The notes below the pieces were generated by a model. It saw only the letters and a list, made by a program, of their open reading frames with translations. It was not told where the DNA came from and searched no databases. This document shows positions 16,114 through 29,421 of a stretch of DNA of 57,830 nucleotides, in pieces. The stretch spans positions 1 to 57,830 of the forward strand of contig CAZQSS010000002.1 in the NCBI GenBank assembly GCA_964596405.1, read 5' to 3'. A program made the translations under genes and the position numbers. Within the stretch, counting starts at the first letter, position 1, and every line of letters begins with the position of its first letter. The stretch is from an uncultured Gammaproteobacteria bacterium. Its GTDB lineage: Bacteria; Patescibacteriota; Patescibacteriia; Magasanikbacterales; UBA10003.

Positions 16114-17475
16114 TTAATTATTAATTGTTTTCTTGTATTCCGGCGGGGAGATTTGCAAATCAATGCGGTTTAAATCGCGCGGAAAAAGAGTGGCTTGTTT
16201 AACGTTATCAACGCCCAAAAGCTTGGCGGTCAGTCGCTCCAAACCAATCGCCAATCCGCCTTCGGGCGGCATGCCATATTTAAAAGCCTGCAGATAAAAA
16301 GAAAAATTAGCCGGATCCAATCCCCATTTCCTGATATTTTCCACCAACTGATTATAATCGTTGAGACGTTGACCACCGGTGGTAATTTCCACCCCGCGGA
16401 AAAGCAAATCAAAACTCTTGGTATATTCCGGATCGGTTTCATCCGGATATGTATACATGGGACGCTTCTTGGTCGGATAATGCGTGATGAAAATAAAATC
16501 AGAATCGTACTTTCTTTTCGCGTACTCCCCCAGCCAAACCTCATCGGACGGATCCAAATCCGGTTCGGCCGTGTGGTCAATCCCGGCTTCTTTTTTAATT
16601 AGCTCTTGAGCCTCTTTTAATTTTAAAAAAGGAATTTCTTTGGGCACAACCGGCAACTCCGCCCCCAACGTCTGGAGTTCGTCTGAAAAATTTTTCTTCA
16701 GATAATCCATCATGTGGGCCAATAAATCGCGTTCCAGCCGCATTACATCGGTGTGATCTTTGATAAAACCGAATTCCAAATCCAATGAAGTGTATTCGTT
16801 GATGTGACGGGTGGTGGCGTGTTGCTCGGCGCGAAAAACATTACCGACCGTAAAGACGCGCTCAAAAACACCGACCATAATTTGTTTGTAAAATTGCGGG
16901 CTCTGGGCTAAAAACGCCGGATGGCCAAAATAATCCACTTTAAAAACATTGGCGCCACCTTCGGTTGAGGCGCCGACAATTTTGGGACATTGAAATTCCG
17001 TAAAATCCCGACTAATTAAAAAAGACCGAAAAGCTTGCACCAGCGCGGCCTGAATCTTAAAAATCGCGCGGTTTTTTTCGGTCCGCAAGGTCAAGGGCAA
17101 CATATCCAAATAAACATCCAAACCCATTTTCTCGTCCGCCGGATCCAGCGGTAGCGGCTCAGCCTTGGCCAAAATTTTAAAACCCTTGGCCAACACTTCA
17201 ATCGCCCCGGTAACCAAATTGGGATTAACACTCTTTTCGTTACGTTTTTGGACAATACCTGAAATCGACACCACAAATTCCGTTCGTACTTCTTTGGCGG
17301 CGTCATAGTCCGCCCCCATCTCCGACGGCGCGCAAATAACCTGTACCAAACCGCTTCGGTCGCGAATATCCAAAAAAATAATCTTACCTAAATTGCGCCG
17401 GGCGCGCACCCACCCTTCCAACAATACCTCTTGGCCGATTTTTTGAGTTGTTTCCAAGATTAAAGTTCTCTCCAT
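16114..17475 (-). CDS. aspS: Aspartyl-tRNA synthetase, archaeal/eukaryal type
   Basis: 453 aa. Class II motif 2 FRAEQHATTRHINEYTSLDLEF, motif 3 GGLAIGLERL, and an N-terminal OB fold. Confidence 0.9.
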   Translation of the reverse strand: MERTLILETTQKIGQEVLLEGWVRARRNLGKIIFLDIRDRSGLVQVICAPSEMGADYDAAKEVRTEFVVSISGIVQKRNEKSVNPNLVTGAIEVLAKGFKILAKAEPLPLDPADEKMGLDVYLDMLPLTLRTEKNRAIFKIQAALVQAFRSFLISRDFTEFQCPKIVGASTEGGANVFKVDYFGHPAFLAQSPQFYKQIMVGVFERVFTVGNVFRAEQHATTRHINEYTSLDLEFGFIKDHTDVMRLERDLLAHMMDYLKKNFSDELQTLGAELPVVPKEIPFLKLKEAQELIKKEAGIDHTAEPDLDPSDEVWLGEYAKRKYDSDFIFITHYPTKKRPMYTYPDETDPEYTKSFDLLFRGVEITTGGQRLNDYNQLVENIRKWGLDPANFSFYLQAFKYGMPPEGGLAIGLERLTAKLLGVDNVKQATLFPRDLNRIDLQISPPEYKKTINN

Positions 17476-18476: not shown

Positions 18477-18505
18477 ATGATAGCACATTTTTAGCCTTTT
18501 GTCAA
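18477..18505 (-). promoter_or_regulatory. Sigma70-type promoter (TTGACA-17-TATCAT)
   Basis: The minus strand reads TTGACAaaaggctaaaaatgtgcTATCAT, near-identical in layout to 3563-3591. Confidence 0.65.
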
Positions 18506-18646
18506 GCATAGAAAGATTTGATATAATACTAGTAGTTTTGATAGCTTTTTGGCTAAACCCACACCGATTTCGTCTGTAGTAATTATTTTGATTCATAAGT
18601 CATTTATGAATTAAAGACGATGACCAAATTTTAGCATATTCACACT

Positions 18647-18832
18647 TAAACAGTCAAAAGTTCGCTTATCAGTAGTTACGCAAAATCGCGCGAGCGCTTT
18701 TGCGTAATGGGCGGCGGTTCCCTCCAGTTCCGCTCGTCGCTCGCGCGACTTCGCGTAACTGTCGGATATCTGTAATTTTGCCTTGCCGAGCGCGAGCTCG
18801 TCGGCAAAACTCCAGATATCCGCCGCCCATTA
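18647..18832 (+). repeat. Inter-cassette structured element, copy 1 (degenerate 5' module plus full core 18675-18832)
   Basis: The core is GTTACGCAAAATCGCGCGAGCGCTTTTGCGTAATGGGCGGCGGTTCCCTCCAGTTCCGCTCGTCGCTCGCGCGACTTCGCGTAACTGTCGGATATCTGTAAT-[variable hairpin]-CTCCAGATATCCGCCGCCCATTA. Confidence 0.9.
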
Positions 18833-18910
18833 TACGCCATACATTTTATCATTTTGATATTTTTTCACTCTGCTTTTTGTGAGTGATTGACGAATAAAAC
18901 AATATTTTTT
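18830..18910. repeat. Cassette 1 private inverted repeat, left arm
   Basis: TTATACGCCATACATTTTATCATTTTGATATTTTTTCACTCTGCTTTTT..TTGACGAATAAAACAATATTTTTT matches the reverse complement of 20153-20229. Confidence 0.85.
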
Positions 18911-18954
18911 AGTAATTTGATTAAGATAAAGGTACAAAGAATTATTCAACATTT

Positions 18955-20148
18955 ATGTCCTTGGAACGCGAGCCACAACAACATAATGAAAATGAGACTC
19001 GTGACAAATTCAATGCAAAATTGTCTGAATTGGCTGTCTATTGGTTAAAACTAAAAAATTTATGGGAACAAACGGCAACATCAAGAGACCCCCTTACTAA
19101 CAATGATCCCGACACAGAAATCGCGGGATTAGAAGAAAAAATTGCACCCATCCTCATCGAACTGCTCAATGCCAGCGGAGCGGAGCGTGAACTGCTGTAT
19201 GAAAAAGCTAGAAAAATTCGCGATGAAAATACTGACAAAAAAATTCAAGTTCGAGGTGTTATAGAGGTTAGCAATATCTGTCGTGCCAATTGTCTATATT
19301 GCCCAATGCGTCGAGATAATTTACCCACTACTGAAAAAATACGAATTACTCCAAAACAGATTTATAATCAGGTTAAGGCGACCAAAAAAGAAGGCATTAC
19401 AAATTTTTTCATGCAAAGTGGCGAGGATCCACAAATAATTCCCGTGGTATTAGAAGCATTATCGCTGATTAAAAATGACCCAGAAACGCGAGATATTAAA
19501 ATTGTCTTAAATTTAGGCGACCATTTGCCGAACACATATTCCAAACTGCACGAGGCTGGCGCTGATGGTTATTTAATAAAACACGAAACCTCAGATAAAG
19601 AATTACACCGTCTGATGCGACCTCATTCTACAGTTGAACAAAGAGTATCTCATTTACTACAAGCGCGCCAAGCTGGCATGCACATTGGTACTGGTGTAAT
19701 TGTCGGGTTGCCCGGTCAAACCGATCAATCATTAGCACAGGATATAATTTTTGCCGGTCGCATCGGATCTGAACAGATGGTTAGTTGCTCACCATTTATA
19801 CCGGGTGAAACCACTCCACTTGCAGGAGAACAAGCAGGAGATTTTTTCAAAACACTAAACATGATCGCAATATACCGCCTTCTCTTTCCAGCCGCCCGCA
19901 TTCCTGCAGTAAGTAATTTAGATTCTGCCAAACTCAGTACACGACCACCGGATTTAAAAATTAGCGGACAATCGGCAGGAATAAATGCCGGAGCAAATGG
20001 AATAACCATCAACGTGACACCACCAGCGATTCGCGATATCTATAGCATATACGATGTTAAAACAAGAGAAATTGTTGATTTTTCAAAAGCTAAAAGGATT
20101 GAAAAAGAAACAGGATTAACGCTTGATTTAGATGACAAAGATACATAG
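18955..20148 (+). CDS. Radical SAM enzyme, HydE/PylB/BioB-like subfamily (orphan)
   Basis: CxxxCxxC motif in VIEVSNICRANCLYCPMRRDN. Also MQSGEDP, EAGADGYLIKHETSD..LHRLMRP, GVIVGLPGQT, SPFIPGETTPLA and AIYRLLFPAARIPA, which are all HydE-like blocks. Has an unassigned N-terminal extension of about 95 aa. Confidence 0.85.
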   Translation: MSLEREPQQHNENETRDKFNAKLSELAVYWLKLKNLWEQTATSRDPLTNNDPDTEIAGLEEKIAPILIELLNASGAERELLYEKARKIRDENTDKKIQVRGVIEVSNICRANCLYCPMRRDNLPTTEKIRITPKQIYNQVKATKKEGITNFFMQSGEDPQIIPVVLEALSLIKNDPETRDIKIVLNLGDHLPNTYSKLHEAGADGYLIKHETSDKELHRLMRPHSTVEQRVSHLLQARQAGMHIGTGVIVGLPGQTDQSLAQDIIFAGRIGSEQMVSCSPFIPGETTPLAGEQAGDFFKTLNMIAIYRLLFPAARIPAVSNLDSAKLSTRPPDLKISGQSAGINAGANGITINVTPPAIRDIYSIYDVKTREIVDFSKAKRIEKETGLTLDLDDKDT

Positions 20149-20152
20149 AGAC

Positions 20153-20229
20153 AAAAAAATATTGTTTTATTGACGAGCGAAAAAAGCAGAGTGAAAAATA
20201 ATAATTAGGAAAAAATGTACAGCGTATAA
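20153..20229. repeat. Cassette 1 private inverted repeat, right arm
   Basis: Reverse complement of the left arm (..AAAAAAATATTGTTTTATTGAC..AAAAAAGCAGAGTGAAAAATA..GTACAGCGTATAA). Confidence 0.85.
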
Positions 20230-20448
20230 CAGCCGATATGCGGTTCCGCTCCGCTACACCCATATGCTGACGCACATCGCATATCGGCGAACGTTACGCA
20301 AAATCGCGCGAGCGCTTTTGCGTAATGGGCGGCGGTTCCCTCCAGTTCCGCTCGTCGCTCGCGCGACTTCGCGTAACTGTCGGATATCTGTAATCCCGCT
20401 CGCCCCCCGCGAGGGGCCGGCGGGACTCCAGATATCCGCCGCCCATTA
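20226..20448 (+). repeat. Inter-cassette structured element, copy 2 (5' hairpin module plus core 20293-20448)
   Basis: ATAACAG-CCGATATGCGG...CGCATATCGGCG-AAC followed by a core almost identical to copy 1. Confidence 0.9.
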
Positions 20449-20468
20449 TCTGAAATTGTAAATGCCCC
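20446..20468. repeat. Cassette 2 private inverted repeat, left arm (contains the ATG at 20462)
   Basis: TTATCTGAAATTGTAAATGCCCC, compared with the reverse complement of 21244-21266. Confidence 0.85.
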
Positions 20469-21238
20469 CTTTATTTATTGAAATTAAAAAATTATATTCG
20501 CTTCTTAATCCAAAAACTATGATACATAATCACGACATCAACAAACTTCCTGCCGATGGATATTTAGTGCTTCCTCTATCCATGAGCCGCTTGGCGAATG
20601 GCAAGGGTCAAAGCCCCGAAGAATGTTATGAGGTAATACAATATTTCGAGAATAAAGTCAGCCAAGTTGGAATAGATTTTTTGTTTATTTATACCAATGG
20701 ATTGTATTACAACAATGACGAATCTGCTTTGTCGGTCAGAAAAAAGACTAATCAAGCTATGATTGATCACAGAAACGCATTATTAAAATTAATGATAAAA
20801 AACAAAAAATATATTCCCCAAGCAGCTCATTTTATTCCGTGGGATTATATAATTTTGAATTCTCCGCAATTTTCTGATTATTATCAAAAATTAATTAAGC
20901 TGAAAGAAAATGACGAACAATTCAAAATTACTTTAGAGGAAGCACTAAATGGAAGAGAAAACACAGAAGCAAATATAAATTTTTTAATAGAGGAAATCGT
21001 TGTCACTTACTTGATTAGGCAAAAGTTAATTGAATTTCCCAAAACTCTCGTCAAAAATGATAAATTTCGCTTAGTGATTTATCCTGGAACATATTTGAAG
21101 GCTGATTGTTATCAATGGCAGAAAAAAGCATTGCCACAATTTGAAACATCAAGCGAAAATAGCAACCCATATTATGCGTCACAGTATGATTTTGCCAAAA
21201 AAATATTAAACAGTTTTGATGAAATTCAATTACAATAA
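20462..21238 (+). CDS. Hypothetical 258-aa protein, possibly cyclodipeptide-synthase-like (tentative)
   Basis: No strong motif. The order and spacing of LVLPLSMSRL (near residue 40), IDFLFIYTNG, WDYIILNSPQFSDYY, INFLIEEIVV (near residue 175) and LVIYPG (near residue 205) resemble the CDPS blocks GISxxNSxFS / YVxxExP / xYH. This is based on recall only. An alternative start is M20 at 20519. Confidence 0.3.
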   Translation: MPPLFIEIKKLYSLLNPKTMIHNHDINKLPADGYLVLPLSMSRLANGKGQSPEECYEVIQYFENKVSQVGIDFLFIYTNGLYYNNDESALSVRKKTNQAMIDHRNALLKLMIKNKKYIPQAAHFIPWDYIILNSPQFSDYYQKLIKLKENDEQFKITLEEALNGRENTEANINFLIEEIVVTYLIRQKLIEFPKTLVKNDKFRLVIYPGTYLKADCYQWQKKALPQFETSSENSNPYYASQYDFAKKILNSFDEIQLQ

Positions 21239-21243
21239 GGAGT

Positions 21244-21266
21244 GGGGCATTTACAACATCAGATAA
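21244..21266. repeat. Cassette 2 private inverted repeat, right arm
   Basis: GGGGCATTTACAACATCAGATAA, 5 nt after the stop codon. Confidence 0.85.
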
Positions 21267-21510
21267 CACGGCATATCTGCAAGGGCTAAAGCCACATTTC
21301 GCCACGAAAATTATATAAATAAAGGAGGTGGCGAAACGTCAGATATGCCGAAACGTTACGCAAAATCGCGCGAGCGTTTTCGCGTAATGGGCGGCGGTTC
21401 CCTCCAGTTCCGCTCGTCGCTCGCGCGACTTCGCGTAACTGTCGGATATCTGTAATCCCGCTCGCCCCCCGCGAGGGGCCGGCGGGACTCCAGATATCCG
21501 CCGCCCATTA
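21263..21510 (+). repeat. Inter-cassette structured element, copy 3 (5' hairpin module plus core 21355-21510)
   Basis: ATAACAC-GGCATATCTG...CAGATATGCC-GAAAC followed by the core. Both stems of the 5' module differ from copies 2 and 4 by compensatory changes. Confidence 0.9.
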
Positions 21511-21575
21511 GCGAAAATAAATTACTTTTTCCCGTCCGATTTTGACGATTTTAATTGTAGGGGGCCGAATTTTTG
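21508..21575. repeat. Cassette 3 private inverted repeat, left arm
   Basis: TTAGCGAAAATAAATTACTTTTTCCCGTCCGATTTT..GGGGGCCGAATTTTT matches the reverse complement of 24046-24110. Confidence 0.85.
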
Positions 21576-21633
21576 TAATTGTTGACGAGGGGAACAAACG
21601 GAATAGCCACCTTTTGTAGGGTGGCTATCATTT

Positions 21634-21662
21634 TTGACTTAAAACTGTAAAAAAGGTAAAAT
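21634..21662 (+). promoter_or_regulatory. Candidate promoter of the R-M operon (TTGACT-17-TAAAAT)
   Basis: TTGACTtaaaactgtaaaaaaggTAAAAT, preceded by the hairpin ATAGCCACC-ttttgtag-GGTGGCTAT at 21603-21628. Confidence 0.5.
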
Positions 21663-21688
21663 TAAACCATAAAAACCATTTATCACTT

Positions 21689-22480
21689 ATGAAATATCCT
21701 AAAGATTTTACCAACAAATTCATTACTGGTGATTGTATTAAAATCATGAAACAAATACCGGACGGCTCGGTTGATTTAGTTGTTACCTCGCCTCCCTACA
21801 ATCTCAAAAACTCCACAGGCAACGGCATGAAAGACGGCCGTGGCGGTAAATGGTCTGGAGCGGCGCTGGTAAATGGCTATGATAACTACGACGACAACAT
21901 GCCGCATGACGAATACGCTAAGTGGCAACGCAATTGTTTAACCGAAATGTTTAGGGTTGTTAATGATAATGGTGCTATTTTTTATAATCACAAATGGCGC
22001 GTCCAAGATGGATTACTCCAAGATCGACAAGATATTGTTAGTGGTTTTCCGGTAAGACAAATTATTATTTGGCGACGCAAAGGCGGAATCAATTTTAACG
22101 CTGGCTATTTTTTGCCAACCTATGAAGTAATTTATCTTATCGCAAAAAATAATTTCAAATTAGTATCAAAAGCCAACGCCCACGGCGATGTGTGGGAATT
22201 TACCCAAGATATGAACAACCCTCACCCCGCCCCATTTCCGGTCGCGCTGATTGAACGAATCGTTTCCTCCACCAACGCCCAAACTATTTTGGACCCATTT
22301 ATGGGTTCAGGTACTACGGCCGTTGTAGCTAAAGCATTGGGACGAAAATTTATTGGCATTGATATTTCACCTAAATATTGCGAAATGGCTGAGGAACGAC
22401 TCGGACGAAATGTAAAACACAACGAAATGGAACTTCTAAAACCTCAAATGAGTATTTTTAAACTACAACGCGCCGTATGA
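21689..22480 (+). CDS. DNA methyltransferase, beta-class N4-cytosine/N6-adenine (SPPY motif)
   Basis: Motif IV VVTSPPYN lies N-terminal and motif I DPFMGSGTTAVVA C-terminal. Overlaps the endonuclease gene through ATGA. Confidence 0.9.
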   Translation: MKYPKDFTNKFITGDCIKIMKQIPDGSVDLVVTSPPYNLKNSTGNGMKDGRGGKWSGAALVNGYDNYDDNMPHDEYAKWQRNCLTEMFRVVNDNGAIFYNHKWRVQDGLLQDRQDIVSGFPVRQIIIWRRKGGINFNAGYFLPTYEVIYLIAKNNFKLVSKANAHGDVWEFTQDMNNPHPAPFPVALIERIVSSTNAQTILDPFMGSGTTAVVAKALGRKFIGIDISPKYCEMAEERLGRNVKHNEMELLKPQMSIFKLQRAV

Positions 22481-23265
22481 AAATTTACACCAAACCACAG
22501 TTAATCACAAAACTAAAAGAAATCTCAAAACAAGGTTGGATACCAAACGGCCGACATGGCAATGCCGGCGGAATTGGTAACACTTTGGAAGACTTGTTGG
22601 GAATCGAAGAAAATAATTTGCCAATTCCAAACGCCGCCGAATGGGAACTTAAAACACAACGGATCGCTACAAGCTCGCTCACTACTCTTTTTCATACTGA
22701 GCCATCACCACGCGCGGTAAAATTTGTACCACAAATATTACTACCACTTTATGGTTGGAAACACGACGGAGCAGGAAAACAATACCCTAAGAACGAGATG
22801 AGTTTCCGACAAACAATTCATGGGCACAGTCCAAGCGACCGTGGCTTTATTGTAAAAATTGACCGCGCAGAACAAAAGGTTTTAATTTCTTTTGACGCCT
22901 CAAAAGTGGCCAAAAAACATAAAATTTGGTTAAAATCCGTCAAAAAGAAAGTCGGCAACTTAAACGAACTCAATCCCCAACCTTATTGGGGTTTTGATGA
23001 TCTGGGACACAAAGCCGGCACCAAACTTCTGAACTGTTTTTATGTCCAAGCCAAAGTGAAAAAAGAAAAAGGCAAAGAATTTTACCATTACACAAAAGTA
23101 ATGATGTTACAAAAATTCAGTTTTGAAAAATTTTTAAACGCTCTTGATGAGGGCAAAATTCTAGTGGACTTTGACGCTCGCACCGGCCATAACCACGGCA
23201 CAAAATTTCGGATGAGACAAGATTGTTTGCCGATGTTGTATGAAAAAACCACCTCAATAATATAA
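22477..23265 (+). CDS. Type II restriction endonuclease, MvaI/BcnI (MutH-like) family
   Basis: N-terminus MKIYTKPQLITKLKEISKQGW and the blocks GNTLEDLLGIEENNLPIPNAAEWELKT and HYTKVMML resemble BcnI/MvaI as I recall them. Translationally coupled to the methyltransferase gene. Confidence 0.75.
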   Translation: MKIYTKPQLITKLKEISKQGWIPNGRHGNAGGIGNTLEDLLGIEENNLPIPNAAEWELKTQRIATSSLTTLFHTEPSPRAVKFVPQILLPLYGWKHDGAGKQYPKNEMSFRQTIHGHSPSDRGFIVKIDRAEQKVLISFDASKVAKKHKIWLKSVKKKVGNLNELNPQPYWGFDDLGHKAGTKLLNCFYVQAKVKKEKGKEFYHYTKVMMLQKFSFEKFLNALDEGKILVDFDARTGHNHGTKFRMRQDCLPMLYEKTTSII

Positions 23266-23274
23266 AACAATAAA

Positions 23275-23985
23275 TTGCTAACCAAATTTATGAAAAAAAT
23301 CATAATTTATTTAAAATTTTTTTGGGTGGCAATACTTTTGTTTATATTATCTATAATTTGCTGGTACTACTTACCAGAAAATTATAACAATTTCAAAGGC
23401 AATTTAATCGCTTCTATTCTCGGCGTTGGAATCGCAATTTTTACTGCTGAGGGTTTTAAAAATATTAACGACCATAGACGAATCAAAAAGAACTTCGGAT
23501 TTTTAAGGCTTATTGTAATCCCTTATCTAAAAAATCAAACACAAAATTTTATAGATACAGCGAATGGTTTCCAAGATATATGTAATAAAGTACAAGCCGT
23601 CAATTTTATCGCAGTCATATCCAGCATAAATGAAATGAGTAATACATTTGATAAAAGCTGGCTTCAATTAATCTTCTCCCAAGATTTTATTGATGCTATA
23701 AAAACAGATGAACACTTCAATAAAATTTCCCACACTATATTGGAATTATTGTTATTCATAAGTTCAACAACAACATTATCCGCAAACGCAAAAACACTCA
23801 TGTTAAACAATGTCGTCCAACTCGACGAAGAAGCGACCAAAATGTTTATAACAAAAGCACGCGAGTTTAGATCGGCCTTAACCAAAAGTGCTCAAGATTT
23901 ACAGAAATACGTTAATTTACTAGACCAAGAAATGGAATTATTTTTTCGAGAGAATAATGTTATTTACCAAGAATTTGAAAGATGA
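23275..23985 (+). CDS. Membrane-anchored (2 TM) helical protein, unknown function, third gene of the R-M cassette
   Basis: Two N-terminal hydrophobic helices followed by an alpha-helical domain of about 170 aa. An alternative start is MKKII at 23290. Confidence 0.55.
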   Translation: MLTKFMKKIIIYLKFFWVAILLFILSIICWYYLPENYNNFKGNLIASILGVGIAIFTAEGFKNINDHRRIKKNFGFLRLIVIPYLKNQTQNFIDTANGFQDICNKVQAVNFIAVISSINEMSNTFDKSWLQLIFSQDFIDAIKTDEHFNKISHTILELLLFISSTTTLSANAKTLMLNNVVQLDEEATKMFITKAREFRSALTKSAQDLQKYVNLLDQEMELFFRENNVIYQEFER

Positions 23986-24045
23986 TTATACATATTTGGT
24001 GAGGGCGCAATTCACCCCTAACCCCTCTTGCGCCCGCCAACGACG

Positions 24046-24110
24046 AAAAAATTCGGCCCCCCATTATATTTAATAAAATCGAACGGAAAAAAGTAATTTA
24101 CATTCGCTAA
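24046..24110. repeat. Cassette 3 private inverted repeat, right arm
   Basis: AAAAAATTCGGCCCCCC..AAAATCGAACGGAAAAAAGTAATTTACATTCGCTAA. Confidence 0.85.
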
Positions 24111-24405
24111 CAGCCGATATGCGGTTCAAGAAAAAGAGTGTAAAATATTTTCAGCGGATACTCTTTTTCTCTCACCCATATTTCGCACAAATTTAATTTT
24201 AATGGAATGTGCGAAACATCGCATATCGGCGTACATTACGCAAAATCGCGCGAGCGCTTTTGCGTAATGGGCGGCGGTTCCCTCCAGTTCCGCTTGTCGC
24301 TCGCGCGACTTCGCGTAACTGTCGGATATGCGGCGCTTCGCTACATCCCGCCCTCGCCTCGAGCCTTGCGGCTCGGACGGGAAGTCGCATATCCGCCGCC
24401 CACTA
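24108..24405 (+). repeat. Inter-cassette structured element, copy 4 (expanded 5' hairpin module plus core 24235-24405)
   Basis: TAACAG-CCGATATGCGG...CGCATATCGGCG-TAC followed by the core. The 3' stem is GGATATGCG/CGCATATCC instead of GGATATCTG/CAGATATCC, which is a compensatory change. Confidence 0.9.
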
Positions 24406-24428
24406 GGCGAAATTTATTTAATTTTTTT
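24404..24428. repeat. Cassette 4 private inverted repeat, left arm
   Basis: TAGGCGAAATTTATTTAATTTTTTT, immediately 5' of the ATG at 24429. Confidence 0.75.
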
Positions 24429-24734
24429 ATGCATAAAGATGTTAGGCCTATTATTAAAGCAACAATATTTATAATTGTTGTGCTGTTAATAGCATGTCCT
24501 TTCTGGTTAAGAATTTTAATTAAAACTGCAGACAAAATGAGCATGAGTATGGGTGACGATAGTATGTTAGAGACTAAGGTCGCTGCCTGGATAATATTAA
24601 TCGGGGTCTTGTTAGTTTGGTTAATTCCTTGGTTGATCCAAATTATCTTATCTGTATACATTTTTAATAAAAATTCTCAACAATCTGATGCAATACTCAA
24701 AACTCTAAAAGATATAAAGAAAAAAATTAAATAA
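24429..24734 (+). CDS. Small (101-aa) two-TM membrane protein
   Basis: Start trimmed to MHKDVRP because the upstream part of the tracked ORF lies in the repeat. Two hydrophobic helices and a Lys-rich tail. Confidence 0.55.
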   Translation: MHKDVRPIIKATIFIIVVLLIACPFWLRILIKTADKMSMSMGDDSMLETKVAAWIILIGVLLVWLIPWLIQIILSVYIFNKNSQQSDAILKTLKDIKKKIK

Positions 24735-24745
24735 ACATCGCATAA
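24720..24745. repeat. Cassette 4 private inverted repeat, right arm (overlaps the last codons and the stop)
   Basis: AAAAAAATTAAATAAACATCGCATAA. Confidence 0.75.
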
Positions 24746-24765
24746 CAGGGGGATATCCGATTCCG
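24742..24765 (+). repeat. Terminal partial copy of the inter-cassette element (first approx 24 nt of the 5' module only)
   Basis: ATAACAGGGGGATATCCGATTCCG, compared with ATAACAGCCGATATGCGGTTCCG in copy 2. Confidence 0.7.
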
Positions 24766-24834
24766 ATACATTGTACGAAATTTTAAAAAACAAATTTTTT
24801 ATTTTTATATAGAGCCCTTTTGAAATTTTTTTTT

Positions 24835-28134: not shown

Positions 28135-29421
28135 TCAAGGTTTCAGTCTGTTAATCATGCGGGGAAATGGTATGCTCTCTCTTACGTGTGAGAGGCCGCA
28201 GATCCAGGTGACGAGTCGTTCCAGGCCATAGCCAAAACCCGAGTGCGGCACCGAGCCGTAACGGCGTAAATCCAAATACCATTCAAACGGTTCGCGTTTC
28301 AAACCGAATTCTTTTAAACGCCGGAGCAGGGTTTCGTAATCGTCTTCGCGCTGACTGCCACCGATCACTTCGCCATAACCCTCAGGCGCGAGCAAATCCG
28401 CGCAGAGCGCGCGACTTTCATCTTGCGGATCACGTTTCATATAAAAGGCCTTAATTTTGGCCGGATATTTTTCAACAAATACGGGCTTGTCGTATTCTTT
28501 GGTCAGAGTGGTTTCATCATCCCCGCCTAAATCGTCGTCGGCTTTAATATCCGAACCCAATTTGCGCAATTTTTTAACCGCCTCTTCATGGCTTAACCGA
28601 TAAAACGGTGCTTTGACGTTTTCTAAGGGCTTAACATCGCGTTCTAAAATTTTTAATTCCTCCTGATTGATTTCCAAAACTTTATTGACAATAAAACTGA
28701 CGAGATTTTCCTGGATTTCCAAATTGCCAACGTGCTCCACAAAAGCCATCTCCGCGTCCATCATCCAAAACTCGGTTAAGTGCCGGCGAGTTTTGCTTTT
28801 TTCCGCGCGGAAAACCGGCCCAAAATCAAACACGCGGCCGTGCGAAAAAATCGCCGATTCAATATAGAGCTGGCCGGATTGGGTGAGATAAGCGTTGCCC
28901 TCGTCAAAATATTTCATGCCGAAAAGTTCGGTGGTATTTTCGCAGGAAGTCGGAGTCAAAATCGGCGCGTCAATTTTAATAAAATCGTTCTGATTAAAAA
29001 ATTCATAAGTGGCGTTGATAATGGTATTGCGGACACGCTGAATCGCCCACTGCCGCGGCGCACGCAGCCAAAGGTGGCGAATATCCAAAAGAAAATCCGG
29101 CCCGTGCTCTTTTTTGCCAATCGGGAACTCTTCGGCCAGTTGCACAATTTTCAAATCCCCAACCTGAATTTCAAAAACGCCCGGATGCTTGGGGTGGGCG
29201 CTCACCCGGCCATGGACAATCACCGACGTCTCTACGGTGATTTTTTGCGCCGTTTCCCAAACCGCCTCGGGCACGGATTTTTTATCCACGATCGCCTGGA
29301 CAAAACCCGAACCGTCGCGAATTTGCAAAAACGCGATACTGCCCGAAGAGCGCAGATTGTAAACCCAGCCTTTTAGCTCCACCTCTTTTCCAACTGATAA
29401 TGATAAGTTCTTAATAAACAT
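28135..29421 (-). CDS. asnS: Asparaginyl-tRNA synthetase
   Basis: 428 aa with FRAEKSKTRRHLTEFWMMDAEMAF and GGSQRE...YLDLRRYGSVPHSGFGYGLERLV..IPFPR. Confidence 0.9.
   Translation of the reverse strand: MFIKNLSLSVGKEVELKGWVYNLRSSGSIAFLQIRDGSGFVQAIVDKKSVPEAVWETAQKITVETSVIVHGRVSAHPKHPGVFEIQVGDLKIVQLAEEFPIGKKEHGPDFLLDIRHLWLRAPRQWAIQRVRNTIINATYEFFNQNDFIKIDAPILTPTSCENTTELFGMKYFDEGNAYLTQSGQLYIESAIFSHGRVFDFGPVFRAEKSKTRRHLTEFWMMDAEMAFVEHVGNLEIQENLVSFIVNKVLEINQEELKILERDVKPLENVKAPFYRLSHEEAVKKLRKLGSDIKADDDLGGDDETTLTKEYDKPVFVEKYPAKIKAFYMKRDPQDESRALCADLLAPEGYGEVIGGSQREDDYETLLRRLKEFGLKREPFEWYLDLRRYGSVPHSGFGYGLERLVTWICGLSHVRESIPFPRMINRLKP

What the first reader, a model, noticed from the sequence alone, without database searches (positions are those of the whole stretch)
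18955..20148. Orphan HydE-like radical SAM enzyme as a mobile-looking cassette
The protein matches the HydE/PylB/BioB-like radical SAM subfamily block by block (SNICRANCLYCPMRRDN, MQSGEDP, EAGADGYLIKHETSD, GLPGQT, SPFIPGETTPLA, RLLFPAARIPA). There is no HydA, HydF or HydG, no pyrrolysine genes and no biotin genes in the window. It also has an approx 95-aa N-terminal extension that I cannot assign. A HydE-family enzyme carried as a single-gene cassette next to an R-M system could be a small-molecule-modifying or nucleotide-modifying accessory or defence function.
Basis: partly seen in the sequence, partly recalled or inferred. Interest (0 to 1): 0.6.

Follow-up and report, generated by a model that had tools for sequence, protein, structure and literature searches.

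The report
Orphan HydE-like enzyme on mobile cassette
A tiny groundwater-type bacterium carries, on a swappable gene cassette, an intact enzyme that resembles the hydrogenase-building enzyme HydE but belongs to a separate, unstudied branch, in a genome with no detectable hydrogenase genes.

Summary
The ORF at 18955-20148 (+) is real: a 397-aa radical SAM enzyme whose nearest named family is HydE. It is not HydE. It scores 206.7 bits against a 254.6-bit cut-off and lies outside the bona fide HydE clade in both trees. It lacks four HydE signature residues, including Met291, which all 47 high-scoring HydEs keep. The 97.7%-complete, 958-kb CPR-type genome shows no HydA, HydF, HydG, PylD or BioD.

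It belongs to a rare clade marked by a conserved two-helix N-terminal extension. The extension is about 46-50 aa beyond HydE, not 95. Some clade members are fused to a TehB/TPMT-type methyltransferase or an HD domain. Others sit beside a HemN-like radical SAM gene with a methyltransferase and a DMT/EamA transporter nearby.

The "mobile cassette" reading is confirmed. The gene is one unit of a four-cassette array separated by a roughly 165-230-nt structured element. An identical gene lies on two other contigs, between the same elements but with different neighbours. The genome's only tyrosine recombinase (XerA-type) abuts such an element on another contig.

A defence or nucleotide-modifying role has no support. 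Most likely it is an accessory small-molecule enzyme, perhaps doing sulfur chemistry. The scan had already noted this cassette array on this same stretch, and other non-hydrogenase HydE-like genes on other DNA.

The parts
18955..20148 (+). HydE-like radical SAM gene (397 aa)
   Evidence: ORF. Pfam PF04055 E 2.2e-22. TIGR03956 206.7 bits against a 254.6 cut-off. AF2 model pLDDT 93.6, pTM 0.93. Foldseek top 10 hits are all T. maritima HydE, E about 2e-30.
18955..19167 (+). N-terminal extension, residues 1-71, predicted as a two-helix hairpin (helices 9-39 and 55-71). It is specific to this clade.
   Evidence: AF2 secondary structure; block-mean pLDDT 86-98 over residues 11-70. W37 is invariant and W30, P46, L47 and E60 are at least 90% conserved in 43 sequences. 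No Pfam family matches it.
19279..19302 (+). CX3CX2C motif (C109, C113, C116) for the radical SAM [4Fe-4S] cluster
   Evidence: Translation. The three Cys are present in 9 of 9 tier-1 and 12 of 13 tier-2 rows, the thirteenth being a gap.
20005..20007 (+). Thr351, at the position of HydE Met291
   Evidence: Met in 47 of 47 HydE rows scoring at least 280 bits. Thr in 8 of 9 tier-1 and 11 of 13 tier-2 rows.
18830..18878 (.). Left private inverted repeat of the rSAM cassette
   Evidence: the repeat finder I2: 49 nt, 82% complementary to 20181-20229.
20181..20229 (.). Right private inverted repeat of the rSAM cassette
   Evidence: I2.
18672..18836 (+). Structured conserved element, copy 1. It has the core only, with its own variable hairpin, and abuts the recombinase remnant.
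20227..20449 (+). Structured conserved element, copy 2 (5' stem-loop plus core), closing the rSAM cassette
   Evidence: The consensus fold has 49 pairs, 15 of them with compensatory changes.
18577..18697 (.). Stretch homologous to the end of contig C27. It holds a remnant of the first ~20 nt of the tyrosine recombinase gene plus the site region.
   Evidence: BLAST: 121 nt at 95.9% identity to C27 11654-11774. Sequences.
20462..21238 (+). Cassette 2: 258-aa protein with no family hit
21262..21513 (+). Structured conserved element, copy 3
21689..23985 (+). Cassette 3: N4/N6 DNA methyltransferase, MvaI/BcnI-type restriction endonuclease, and a 236-aa ORF with no family hit
   Evidence: Pfam PF01555 1.2e-45 and PF15515 6.6e-69. 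PADLOC MTase_II 409.5 bits and REase_II 291.4 bits.
24106..24407 (+). Structured conserved element, copy 4 (longer variable hairpin)
24404..24775 (+). Cassette 4: a short ORF between its own inverted repeats, followed by a remnant of only the 5' part of the element
   Evidence: I18. Sequence read.

Best explanation
SHOWN. The gene encodes an intact full-barrel radical SAM enzyme. It belongs to a distinct, uncharacterised clade related to HydE, the [FeFe]-hydrogenase maturase, but is not a HydE. The clade is defined by a conserved two-helix N-terminal extension. It keeps HydE residues R54, E58, L157, M224, Y303 and Y306. It replaces the residues that handle the Fe(CO)2(CN) species in HydE: V105 to F, T134 to V/I, R155 to G and M291 to T. 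The gene is the sole gene of one cassette in an array of four cassettes. The cassettes are separated by a structured element of about 165-230 nt. The same cassette occurs, with an identical protein, beside different cassettes on two other contigs. The genome's only tyrosine recombinase, of XerA type, abuts such an element on another contig.

INFERRED. The cassette moves by site-specific recombination at the structured element, in an integron-like or Xer-exploiting way. The enzyme binds a [4Fe-4S] cluster through C109, C113 and C116, cleaves SAM, and uses the 5'-deoxyadenosyl radical on a small, probably sulfur-containing, amino-acid-type metabolite rather than on an iron complex. Its product is one that relatives go on to methylate. 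This rests on fusions to a TehB/TPMT-type methyltransferase, and on neighbourhoods with a HemN-like radical SAM gene, a methyltransferase and a DMT/EamA transporter.

In this genome it is a stand-alone accessory metabolic trait, not a hydrogenase maturase and not a demonstrated defence gene.
For: Family placement. TIGR03956 gives 206.7 bits against a 254.6 cut-off. Three HydEs lying beside HydF and HydG score 353-386 bits. Tier-1 relatives score 184-213 and tier-2 relatives 162-182. In the 117-row tree the query sits in a 9-row clade (99*) next to a 12-row clade (100*). A 53-row HydE clade (99*) excludes it. The same holds in the 49-row tree, where HydE is one side of a 99* branch.

Residues. 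M291 is Met in 47 of 47 HydE rows but Thr in 8 of 9 and 11 of 13 clade rows. R155 is Arg in 41 of 47 but Gly in 8 of 9 and 7 of 13. M224 is kept in 9 of 9 and 10 of 13. Residue roles come from passages read in PMC11826987 and PMC10114646.

No partners. HydA, HydF, HydG, PylD and BioD are not found in the 97.69%-complete genome.

Fold. AF2 pLDDT is 93.6. The best structural matches are T. maritima HydE with TM 0.83-0.88, then PylB.

Mobility. Four element copies occur only at this locus. L081 and L082 carry the identical 397-aa gene with different flanking cassettes. A 280-aa XerA-type recombinase (NF040815, 236.6 bits against 220) lies about 80 nt from an element copy at the end of contig C27. 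It is the only PF00589 hit in the genome. The element structure covaries: 15 of 49 pairs show compensatory changes.

Chemistry leads. P0005 and P0007 are fused to a methyltransferase hitting Pfam TehB and TPMT. That domain's PDB hits include Thiol methyltransferase 1 and TehB. P0002 is fused to HD/DUF4202. A tier-2-like homologue on a Bradyrhizobium plasmid lies next to a HemN-like gene, with a methyltransferase and a DMT transporter nearby. L003 shows a similar arrangement.
Against: There is no biochemical evidence for any substrate. The sulfur reading rests on analogy with HydE and on a weak methyltransferase similarity: 41.8 bits to a thiol methyltransferase, while the best PDB hit, at 74.2 bits, is a Methanosarcina acetivorans methyltransferase whose PDB title names no substrate.

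The HydE relay lysine K309 is not conserved in the clade: K in 3 of 9 tier-1 rows and G in 10 of 13 tier-2 rows. Only 3 of the 8 tier-1 relatives are fusion proteins.

This genome has no detectable HemN-like partner and only weak generic methyltransferase hits, so the pathway seen in relatives is incomplete here.

The deep position of the clade is unresolved. A tree holding HydE and the clade together is not rejected (p-AU 0.539). The HydE group in the residue table was defined by HMM score, which is partly circular.

In five relatives searched, the recombinase matches are on different contigs from the element hits; four of the five had a match. No recombination has been observed.
Confidence: 0.6

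Rival explanations
1. It is a genuine HydE maturase left over from, or serving, a [FeFe]-hydrogenase encoded elsewhere.
For: HydE is the best model and the best structure match. M224, R54, E58, Y303 and Y306 are conserved. The genome is in 68 contigs.
Against: It scores below the cut-off by 48 bits. It lies outside the 99*-supported HydE clade. M291, R155, T134 and V105 are replaced. No HydA, HydF or HydG is found at 97.69% completeness.
Confidence: 0.03
2. It is an anti-phage defence or counter-defence effector that modifies a nucleotide or another small molecule, in the manner of viperins, and travels among defence cassettes.
For: It shares the array with a type II R-M cassette. One relative (P0002) is fused to an HD phosphohydrolase-type domain. 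From my own knowledge, not checked here, integron cassette arrays often carry defence genes.
Against: PADLOC gives no hit for it or for P0002. The mad2 hit of P0005 covers only its methyltransferase domain. The annotated neighbourhoods of relatives hold transporters, regulators and glycosyltransferases, with no gene annotated as a defence gene. Phage records give only 26-34% identity matches to unannotated DNA or bioB-labelled genes. Other cassettes bounded by this element include an alpha/beta-hydrolase-like protein, judged from its motifs by eye.
Confidence: 0.1
3. It modifies a macromolecule (tRNA, rRNA or a protein), and the N-terminal helical hairpin is the docking module.
For: It is a stand-alone gene with changing neighbours. 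It has a conserved extra helical domain of unknown role.
Against: All characterised members of the HydE/PylB/BioB/HydG/ThiH full-barrel group that match it act on small molecules or metal complexes (titles). It is rare and patchy: apart from this genome, 1 of 400 sampled phylum genomes holds a close relative. That is unlike a translation-apparatus modifier. Some relatives lie beside exporters.
Confidence: 0.12
4. It is a PylB-type carbon-skeleton mutase, or another H-abstraction enzyme, acting on an amino acid with no sulfur chemistry involved.
For: PylB is the second-best family and structure. The HydE-specific iron-handling residues are lost.
Against: PylB scores 118.1 bits against a 348.2 cut-off, lower than the 164-194 bits that three HydEs beside HydF and HydG reach on that model. 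The methionine M224 and the TehB/TPMT-type methyltransferase fusions fit a chalcogen better, but weakly.
Confidence: 0.15

Closest known systems
HydE, [FeFe]-hydrogenase H-cluster maturase (TIGR03956; T. maritima structures 3IIZ, 3CIW, 7O1O)
   Same: Full (beta-alpha)8 radical SAM barrel with a CX3CX2C motif. It is 33-34% identical, with TM 0.83-0.88. R54, E58, L157, M224, Y303 and Y306 are conserved.
   Different: The score is below the cut-off, it lies outside the HydE clade, and HydA, HydF and HydG are not found. M291, R155, T134 and V105 are replaced. There are no Cys residues in the C-terminal tail (from residue 280 on) for an auxiliary cluster. It has about 46-50 extra N-terminal residues and a 9-residue insertion near residues 323-336.
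HydE-like radical SAM genes paired with HemN-like radical SAM, methyltransferase and EamA/DMT transporter genes (uncharacterised module)
   Same: Tier-2-like homologues on a Bradyrhizobium plasmid and in L003 sit beside or near a HemN-like gene and a methyltransferase. The HydE-like members of that module share the F/T/G-type replacements.
   Different: The Verrucomicrobia module members lack the N-terminal extension and fall in another clade. This genome has no such HemN-like partner.
PylB methylornithine synthase (3T7V) and BioB biotin synthase (1R30)
   Same: Same fold class. Foldseek E 6.6e-20 for PylB and 3.9e-16 for BioB.
   Different: 118.1 bits against 348.2 for PylB, and 89.7 against 225 for BioB. 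PylD and BioD are not found.
Integron gene cassettes (IntI/attC), and mobile elements that exploit Xer recombinases at dif. Both comparisons are from my own knowledge.
   Same: Co-oriented cassettes are separated by imperfectly palindromic structured sites. A tyrosine recombinase is divergent from a site copy. Cassette order differs between contigs.
   Different: The recombinase lacks the stretch of the IntI model at positions 181-237 and scores 229.6 against a 265 cut-off. The sites are about 165-300 nt with a highly conserved core. Each cassette has long private inverted repeats. No 28-30-bp dif-like site has been defined.

Membership tests
HydE (TIGR03956 equivalog) | Score at or above the curated cut-off of 254.6 bits | tested here: not met
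   206.7 bits. Three HydEs lying beside HydF and HydG score 353-386.
HydE (TIGR03956 equivalog) | Placement inside the clade of HydEs linked or fused to HydF or HydG | tested here: not met
   The HydE clade of 53 rows (99*) excludes it, as does the 14-row HydE group (99*) in the smaller tree. Whether its clade is sister to HydE is unresolved (p-AU 0.539).
HydE (TIGR03956 equivalog) | Co-occurrence with HydA, HydF and HydG | tested here: not met
   PF02906 gives no match. TIGR03955 matches only the gene itself, at 53.2 bits. TIGR03918 gives at most 76 bits against a 325.55 cut-off. Genome completeness is 97.69%.
HydE (TIGR03956 equivalog) | Residues that handle the Fe(CO)2(CN) species: M224, M291, R155, T134, V105 | tested here: not met
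   M224 is kept (M275). M291 becomes T351, R155 becomes G205, T134 becomes V184 and V105 becomes F152. Roles are from passages read in PMC11826987 and PMC10114646.
Radical SAM superfamily (PF04055) | CX3CX2C motif and core domain above the gathering score | tested here: met
   80.4 bits against 29.5. C109, C113 and C116 are present.
PylB (TIGR03910) | Score at or above 348.2 bits, with PylC/PylD present | tested here: not met
   118.1 bits. PylD was not found. PylC was not searched.
BioB (TIGR00433) | Score at or above 225 bits, with biotin pathway genes present | tested here: not met
   89.7 bits. BioD was not found. The ligands of the auxiliary [2Fe-2S] cluster were not examined.
Integron (context of the cassette) | IntI-type integrase with its extra domain | tested here: not met
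   TIGR02249 gives 229.6 bits against 265, in two stretches that skip model positions 181-237. The best model over its cut-off is XerA-type NF040815, 236.6 against 220.
Integron (context of the cassette) | attC sites as recognised by the IntegronFinder covariance model | not testable with these tools
   That model is not in Rfam. Rfam gave nothing relevant here. A structured, covarying element is present.
Integron (context of the cassette) | Cassettes that change neighbours between genomes | tested here: met
   L081 and L082 compared with the window.

The most novel reading that the evidence does not exclude
The N-terminally extended clade may be a metal-free descendant of HydE chemistry. In this reading, the radical SAM enzyme attacks the sulfur (or selenium) of a free cysteine- or thiazolidine-type metabolite and releases a thiol or chalcogenide. 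Fused or neighbouring methyltransferases then methylate that product. In CPR bacteria the trait is traded as a single-gene cassette by a Xer-type recombinase acting on large folded sites, a cassette system distinct from classical integrons.
Probability: 0.15. Interest if true: 0.75.

Novelty: new variant of a known kind. Interest (0 to 1): 0.5.

Why it matters
HydE-family enzymes are known almost only as hydrogenase maturases. A well-defined sister-type clade with a different pocket, carried where no hydrogenase exists, points to an unknown radical reaction.

The clade offers tractable entry points. One is a cultured Bradyrhizobium plasmid copy. Another is the natural fusions to a methyltransferase.

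The cassette also shows that very small CPR genomes can exchange single enzymes through a site-specific cassette array. That bears on how these reduced organisms acquire accessory metabolism.

Tried and rejected
- Rfam found nothing relevant for the repeat, at gathering and at E-value thresholds.
I used RNAalifold on six copies instead.
- PADLOC gave no hit for the enzyme, cassette 2, the 236-aa ORF, cassette 4 or the L081/L082 cassette proteins.
- A search for longer fused forms (696-2000 aa) found none at E <= 1e-60. The tool itself calls this weak evidence.
- The promoter and terminator scan was uninformative: 30 promoter-like sites against 19.6 +/- 5.0 expected, and 7 terminator-like sites against 6.9 +/- 2.3.
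- The AU test on the full 117-row set did not finish in three runs. I replaced it with a 49-row set. That result does not resolve the deep branching.
- A 17-nt pattern scan of genome contigs gave 91 stretches. I estimate chance alone would give about as many. Only 3 of the 80 fetched loci (L140, L174, L188) showed extended similarity to the element.
- In five relatives that have element hits, the recombinase matches are on other contigs; four of the five had a match.
- Literature: "HydE-like" with "radical SAM" gave 0 papers. Six phrasings for HydE homologues gave 9 papers, none relevant by title or abstract. "integron" + "attC" + "Patescibacteria" gave 4 papers, all resistome surveys by title (listings only).
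- The protein atlas returned only generic radical SAM, HydE and BioB clusters.
- The contigs of the closest relatives (P0001, P0003, P0004, P0006, P0008) could not be fetched, so their contexts are unknown.
Full report
**Observation.** Pfam finds only Radical_SAM (E 2.2e-22, residues 103-263). NCBIfam ranks HydE first (TIGR03956, 206.7 bits, cut-off 254.6). PylB follows at 118.1 (cut-off 348.2), then BioB at 89.7 (225), HydG at 53.4 and HmdB at 51.7.

The window is contig C2 of a 957,957-base assembly in 68 contigs, 97.69% complete. Its gene content is typical of a CPR/Patescibacteria organism.

**Not a hydrogenase, pyrrolysine or biotin enzyme.**
- Genome-wide, HydA (PF02906) has no match.
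- HydG matches only this gene itself, at 53.2 bits.
- HydF gives only generic GTPase matches of at most 76 bits against a 325.55 cut-off.
- PylD and BioD are not found.
- Nine radical SAM genes exist in the genome (ten PF04055 matches), so such enzymes can be matured there.

**Relatives.** The word-indexed search gave 914 proteins at E <= 0.001, of which the best 120 were listed. Reading those 120, I saw three tiers.
- Tier 1: eight proteins (P0001-P0008) are 56-88% identical over 94-100% of the query.
- Tier 2: about 45 proteins are 40-47% identical, and most also cover the N-terminus.
- The rest are about 320-350 aa, cover about 81% of the query, and start near residue 67.

The exhaustive representative search gave 2007 proteins at E <= 0.001 and 252 at E <= 1e-30.

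Among the eight tier-1 proteins, P0005 and P0007 carry a C-terminal class I methyltransferase that hits Pfam TehB and TPMT. P0002 carries an HD/DUF4202 domain. No longer fusions were found.

In a sample of 401 genomes of the phylum, 15 had a match at E <= 1e-20. Only one besides this genome was close: G166, at 58% identity, whose gene is the 619-aa methyltransferase fusion. The genomes of the same family, order and class listed individually as non-matching had none. The gene is therefore rare and patchy.

**Phylogeny and scores.** I scanned 100 relatives against NCBIfam, plus 14 proteins.
- Three HydEs that lie beside HydF and HydG score 353-386 bits, and three HydE-HydG fusions score 348-394.
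- Tier-1 proteins score 184-213 and tier-2 proteins 162-182.
- HydE-like proteins from other gene clusters score about 160-273.

In a 117-row tree rooted on HydG halves (quick search, SH-aLRT support), the query falls in a 9-row clade (99*) beside a 12-row tier-2 clade (100*). A 0.61-long, 100* branch separates these from 91 rows. Those 91 rows contain a 53-row HydE clade (99*) and the other HydE-like groups.

A 49-row tree again makes HydE one side of a 99* branch. An AU test does not reject holding HydE and the query's clade together against the other HydE-like rows and the outgroup (p-AU 0.539). The protein is therefore outside HydE, but whether its clade is HydE's sister or more basal is open. 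PylB, HmdB and BioB sequences could not be added to the tree.

**Active site.** I took T. maritima HydE residue roles from passages of PMC11826987 and PMC10114646. I mapped them through the PDB alignment and a MAFFT alignment of 117 rows.

| HydE residue | Query residue | HydE rows (>= 280 bits, n = 47) | Tier 1 (n = 9) | Tier 2 (n = 13) |
|---|---|---|---|---|
| R54 | R100 | R 44 | R 9 | R 10 |
| E58 | E104 | E 45 | E 9 | D 9, E 2 |
| L157 | L207 | L 47 | L 9 | L 11 |
| M224 | M275 | M 47 | M 9 | M 10 |
| Y303 | Y363 | Y 46 | Y 9 | Y 13 |
| Y306 | Y366 | Y 46 | Y 9 | Y 12 |
| V105 | F152 | V 41 | F 8 | F 12 |
| T134 | V184 | T 43 | V 5, I 4 | I 5, T 4, V 4 |
| R155 | G205 | R 41 | G 8 | G 7 |
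| M291 | T351 | M 47 | T 8 | T 11 |
| K309 | K369 | K 36 | K 3 | G 10 |

The residues lost are the ones the papers assign to binding the Fe(CO)2(CN) fragment and its cyanide ligands. Two caveats apply: the HydE group was defined by HMM score, and part of the mapping began from a hand-read alignment.

**Structure.** With a 43-sequence alignment, AlphaFold2 gives pLDDT 93.6 and pTM 0.93. The ten best Foldseek matches are all T. maritima HydE (E about 2e-30, target TM 0.80-0.88, 33-34% identity). PylB, BioB, HydG and ThiH follow.

The N-terminal extension is a confident two-helix hairpin (helices 9-39 and 55-71). W37 is invariant, and W30, P46, L47 and E60 are nearly so. Relative to HydE it adds about 46-50 residues, not 95. 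Its role is unknown.

**Contexts of relatives.** Clustering ORFs from 80 genome loci and annotating representatives shows four situations.
- True HydEs lie with HydF and HydG (the neighbour identities are inferred from the ORF clustering and the HydE-HydG fusions; the HydEs themselves were scored).
- An actinomycete and Burkholderia cluster holds a B12-radical SAM enzyme, a hydrolase, a ligase and oxygenases.
- A Verrucomicrobia module holds an ABC transporter, a RyR-domain protein, a methyltransferase, an EamA transporter, a HemN-like radical SAM and a HydE-like gene.
- The N-extended proteins have changing neighbours. In L002 an IclR regulator lies beside a duplicated aroA 3' end. In L001 there is an outer-membrane efflux protein, and in L006 a RecG fragment. 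In the CPR2 contig there are a hydrolase and a response regulator.

Two N-extended members do link to the HemN-like module. L003 has a HemN-like gene about 4 kb away. A homologue on a conjugative Bradyrhizobium plasmid is 41.8% identical over query residues 23-385. It lies directly beside a "coproporphyrinogen-III oxidase family" gene, with a methyltransferase and a DMT transporter upstream. The window's genome has no such HemN-like gene detectable with the Verrucomicrobia protein and only weak generic methyltransferase hits.

**The cassette.** Four copies of a G+C-rich element lie at about 18672-18836, 20227-20449, 21262-21513 and 24106-24407. Full-length copies occur nowhere else in the genome. 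A 23-nt match sits at the end of C27 and a 50-nt partial match near the end of C49. The copies delimit four co-oriented units:
- the radical SAM gene;
- a 258-aa unknown;
- a type II R-M pair plus a 236-aa ORF with no family hit;
- a short ORF.

Each unit has its own terminal inverted repeats abutting the element (I2, I12 and I18; cassette 2 read by eye). Another first-stage note on this stretch had made that point.

Two metagenome contigs carry the identical 397-aa gene between the same elements but with different neighbours. L082 has a 268-aa ORF upstream, and L081 has unrelated small ORFs downstream. Both have a different variable hairpin in the upstream element. That is direct evidence of cassette exchange.

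Contig C27 ends in the first 23 nt of the element, about 80 nt from the start of a divergent 280-aa tyrosine recombinase. Window 18577-18697 is 95.9% identical to that end and retains only the first ~20 nt of the recombinase gene. The recombinase passes the XerA-type model (236.6 bits against 220). It fails the integron-integrase model (229.6 against 265, with model positions 181-237 unmatched). It is the only PF00589 hit in the genome.

Related elements occur in 7 of 60 relatives and in a Candidatus Magasanikbacteria contig. There they flank an ORF with alpha/beta-hydrolase-like motifs, judged by eye without a family search. A six-sequence consensus fold has 49 pairs, 15 of them with compensatory changes.

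The crossover point is unresolved. The swapped hairpins favour the junction between core and cassette. The half-elements at the two ends of the array favour the junction between the 5' stem-loop and the core.

**Function.** The chemistry is inferred, not shown. The enzyme should bind a [4Fe-4S] cluster and SAM like HydE. The retained top-of-barrel residues and M224, together with the loss of the iron-fragment pocket, suggest a small organic, possibly sulfur-bearing, substrate. The fused methyltransferase's best PDB match is a Methanosarcina acetivorans methyltransferase whose PDB title names no substrate (74.2 bits). Weaker matches are Thiol methyltransferase 1 (41.8 bits) and TehB. This fits a chalcogen nucleophile as product only weakly.

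A defence role has no support beyond co-residence with an R-M cassette. Phage and plasmid searches show no close phage copy: the best phage match is 34.4% identical, in unannotated DNA.

**Literature.** I found no paper describing HydE homologues outside hydrogenase maturation using the phrases searched, nor integron-type arrays in Patescibacteria (listings only). Earlier notes of this scan describe other non-hydrogenase HydE-like genes, including the HemN-like, methyltransferase and transporter module. I saw that module independently.

**Verdict.** This is a real, intact, mobile, orphan HydE-related enzyme of an unstudied clade. The size of the extension and the defence reading do not.

Noticed in passing
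window 18672-24775: There is a four-cassette array separated by a structured G+C-rich element of about 165-300 nt. Each cassette has private terminal inverted repeats. The leftmost copy lacks the 5' stem-loop and the rightmost remnant has only that part. The motif ATTA-NNN-RAAAT recurs at both element boundaries.
   Followed up: partly
window 18577-18697 and G000 contig C27 10831-11774 (L114): The window keeps only the first ~20 nt of a tyrosine recombinase gene that is intact (280 aa, XerA-type) on C27. That gene is the only PF00589 hit in the genome. It is unclear whether these are two loci or strain variants.
   Followed up: partly
window 18499-18527 (+) and 18505-18477 (-): A divergent pair of near-consensus sigma-70-like promoters (11 of 12 matches, each with an upstream TG) lies just left of the recombinase remnant, facing the array and the 271-aa gene.
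   Followed up: no
window 16114-17475 and 28135-29421 (both -): Two paralogous class II aminoacyl-tRNA synthetase genes (tRNA-synt_2 plus OB fold) lie on either side of the region that holds the low-G+C cassette island.
   Followed up: no
L002 6200-10500: In an alphaproteobacterial MAG, the N-extended homologue and an IclR regulator lie between a duplicated 3' end of aroA (EPSP synthase) and the rest of the gene. This looks like an island inserted at the gene's end.
   Followed up: no
L140 1-2053: A Candidatus Magasanikbacteria contig has three copies of a related element flanking a 170-aa ORF and an ORF with alpha/beta-hydrolase-like motifs, judged by eye. Arrays bounded by this element therefore exist in another CPR MAG.
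   Followed up: partly
L097 (G047:C4) around 1501-1550: One relative has a permuted junction: the 3' end of the element (…CCCATTA) is followed directly by the element's first hairpin. This may be an empty or recombined site.
   Followed up: no
L115 (G000 contig C49) 770-1681 and 3427-3476: A 3.5-kb contig carrying a Fic/DOC-family gene has a partial copy of the element near its end. It may be another cassette of the system.
   Followed up: no
P0148, P0205 (protein hits): HydE-like domains occur fused to a HemN-like radical SAM domain (825 aa) and to an acyl-CoA-ligase-type domain (813 aa). These fusions mirror gene adjacencies seen in the Verrucomicrobia and actinomycete clusters.
   Followed up: no
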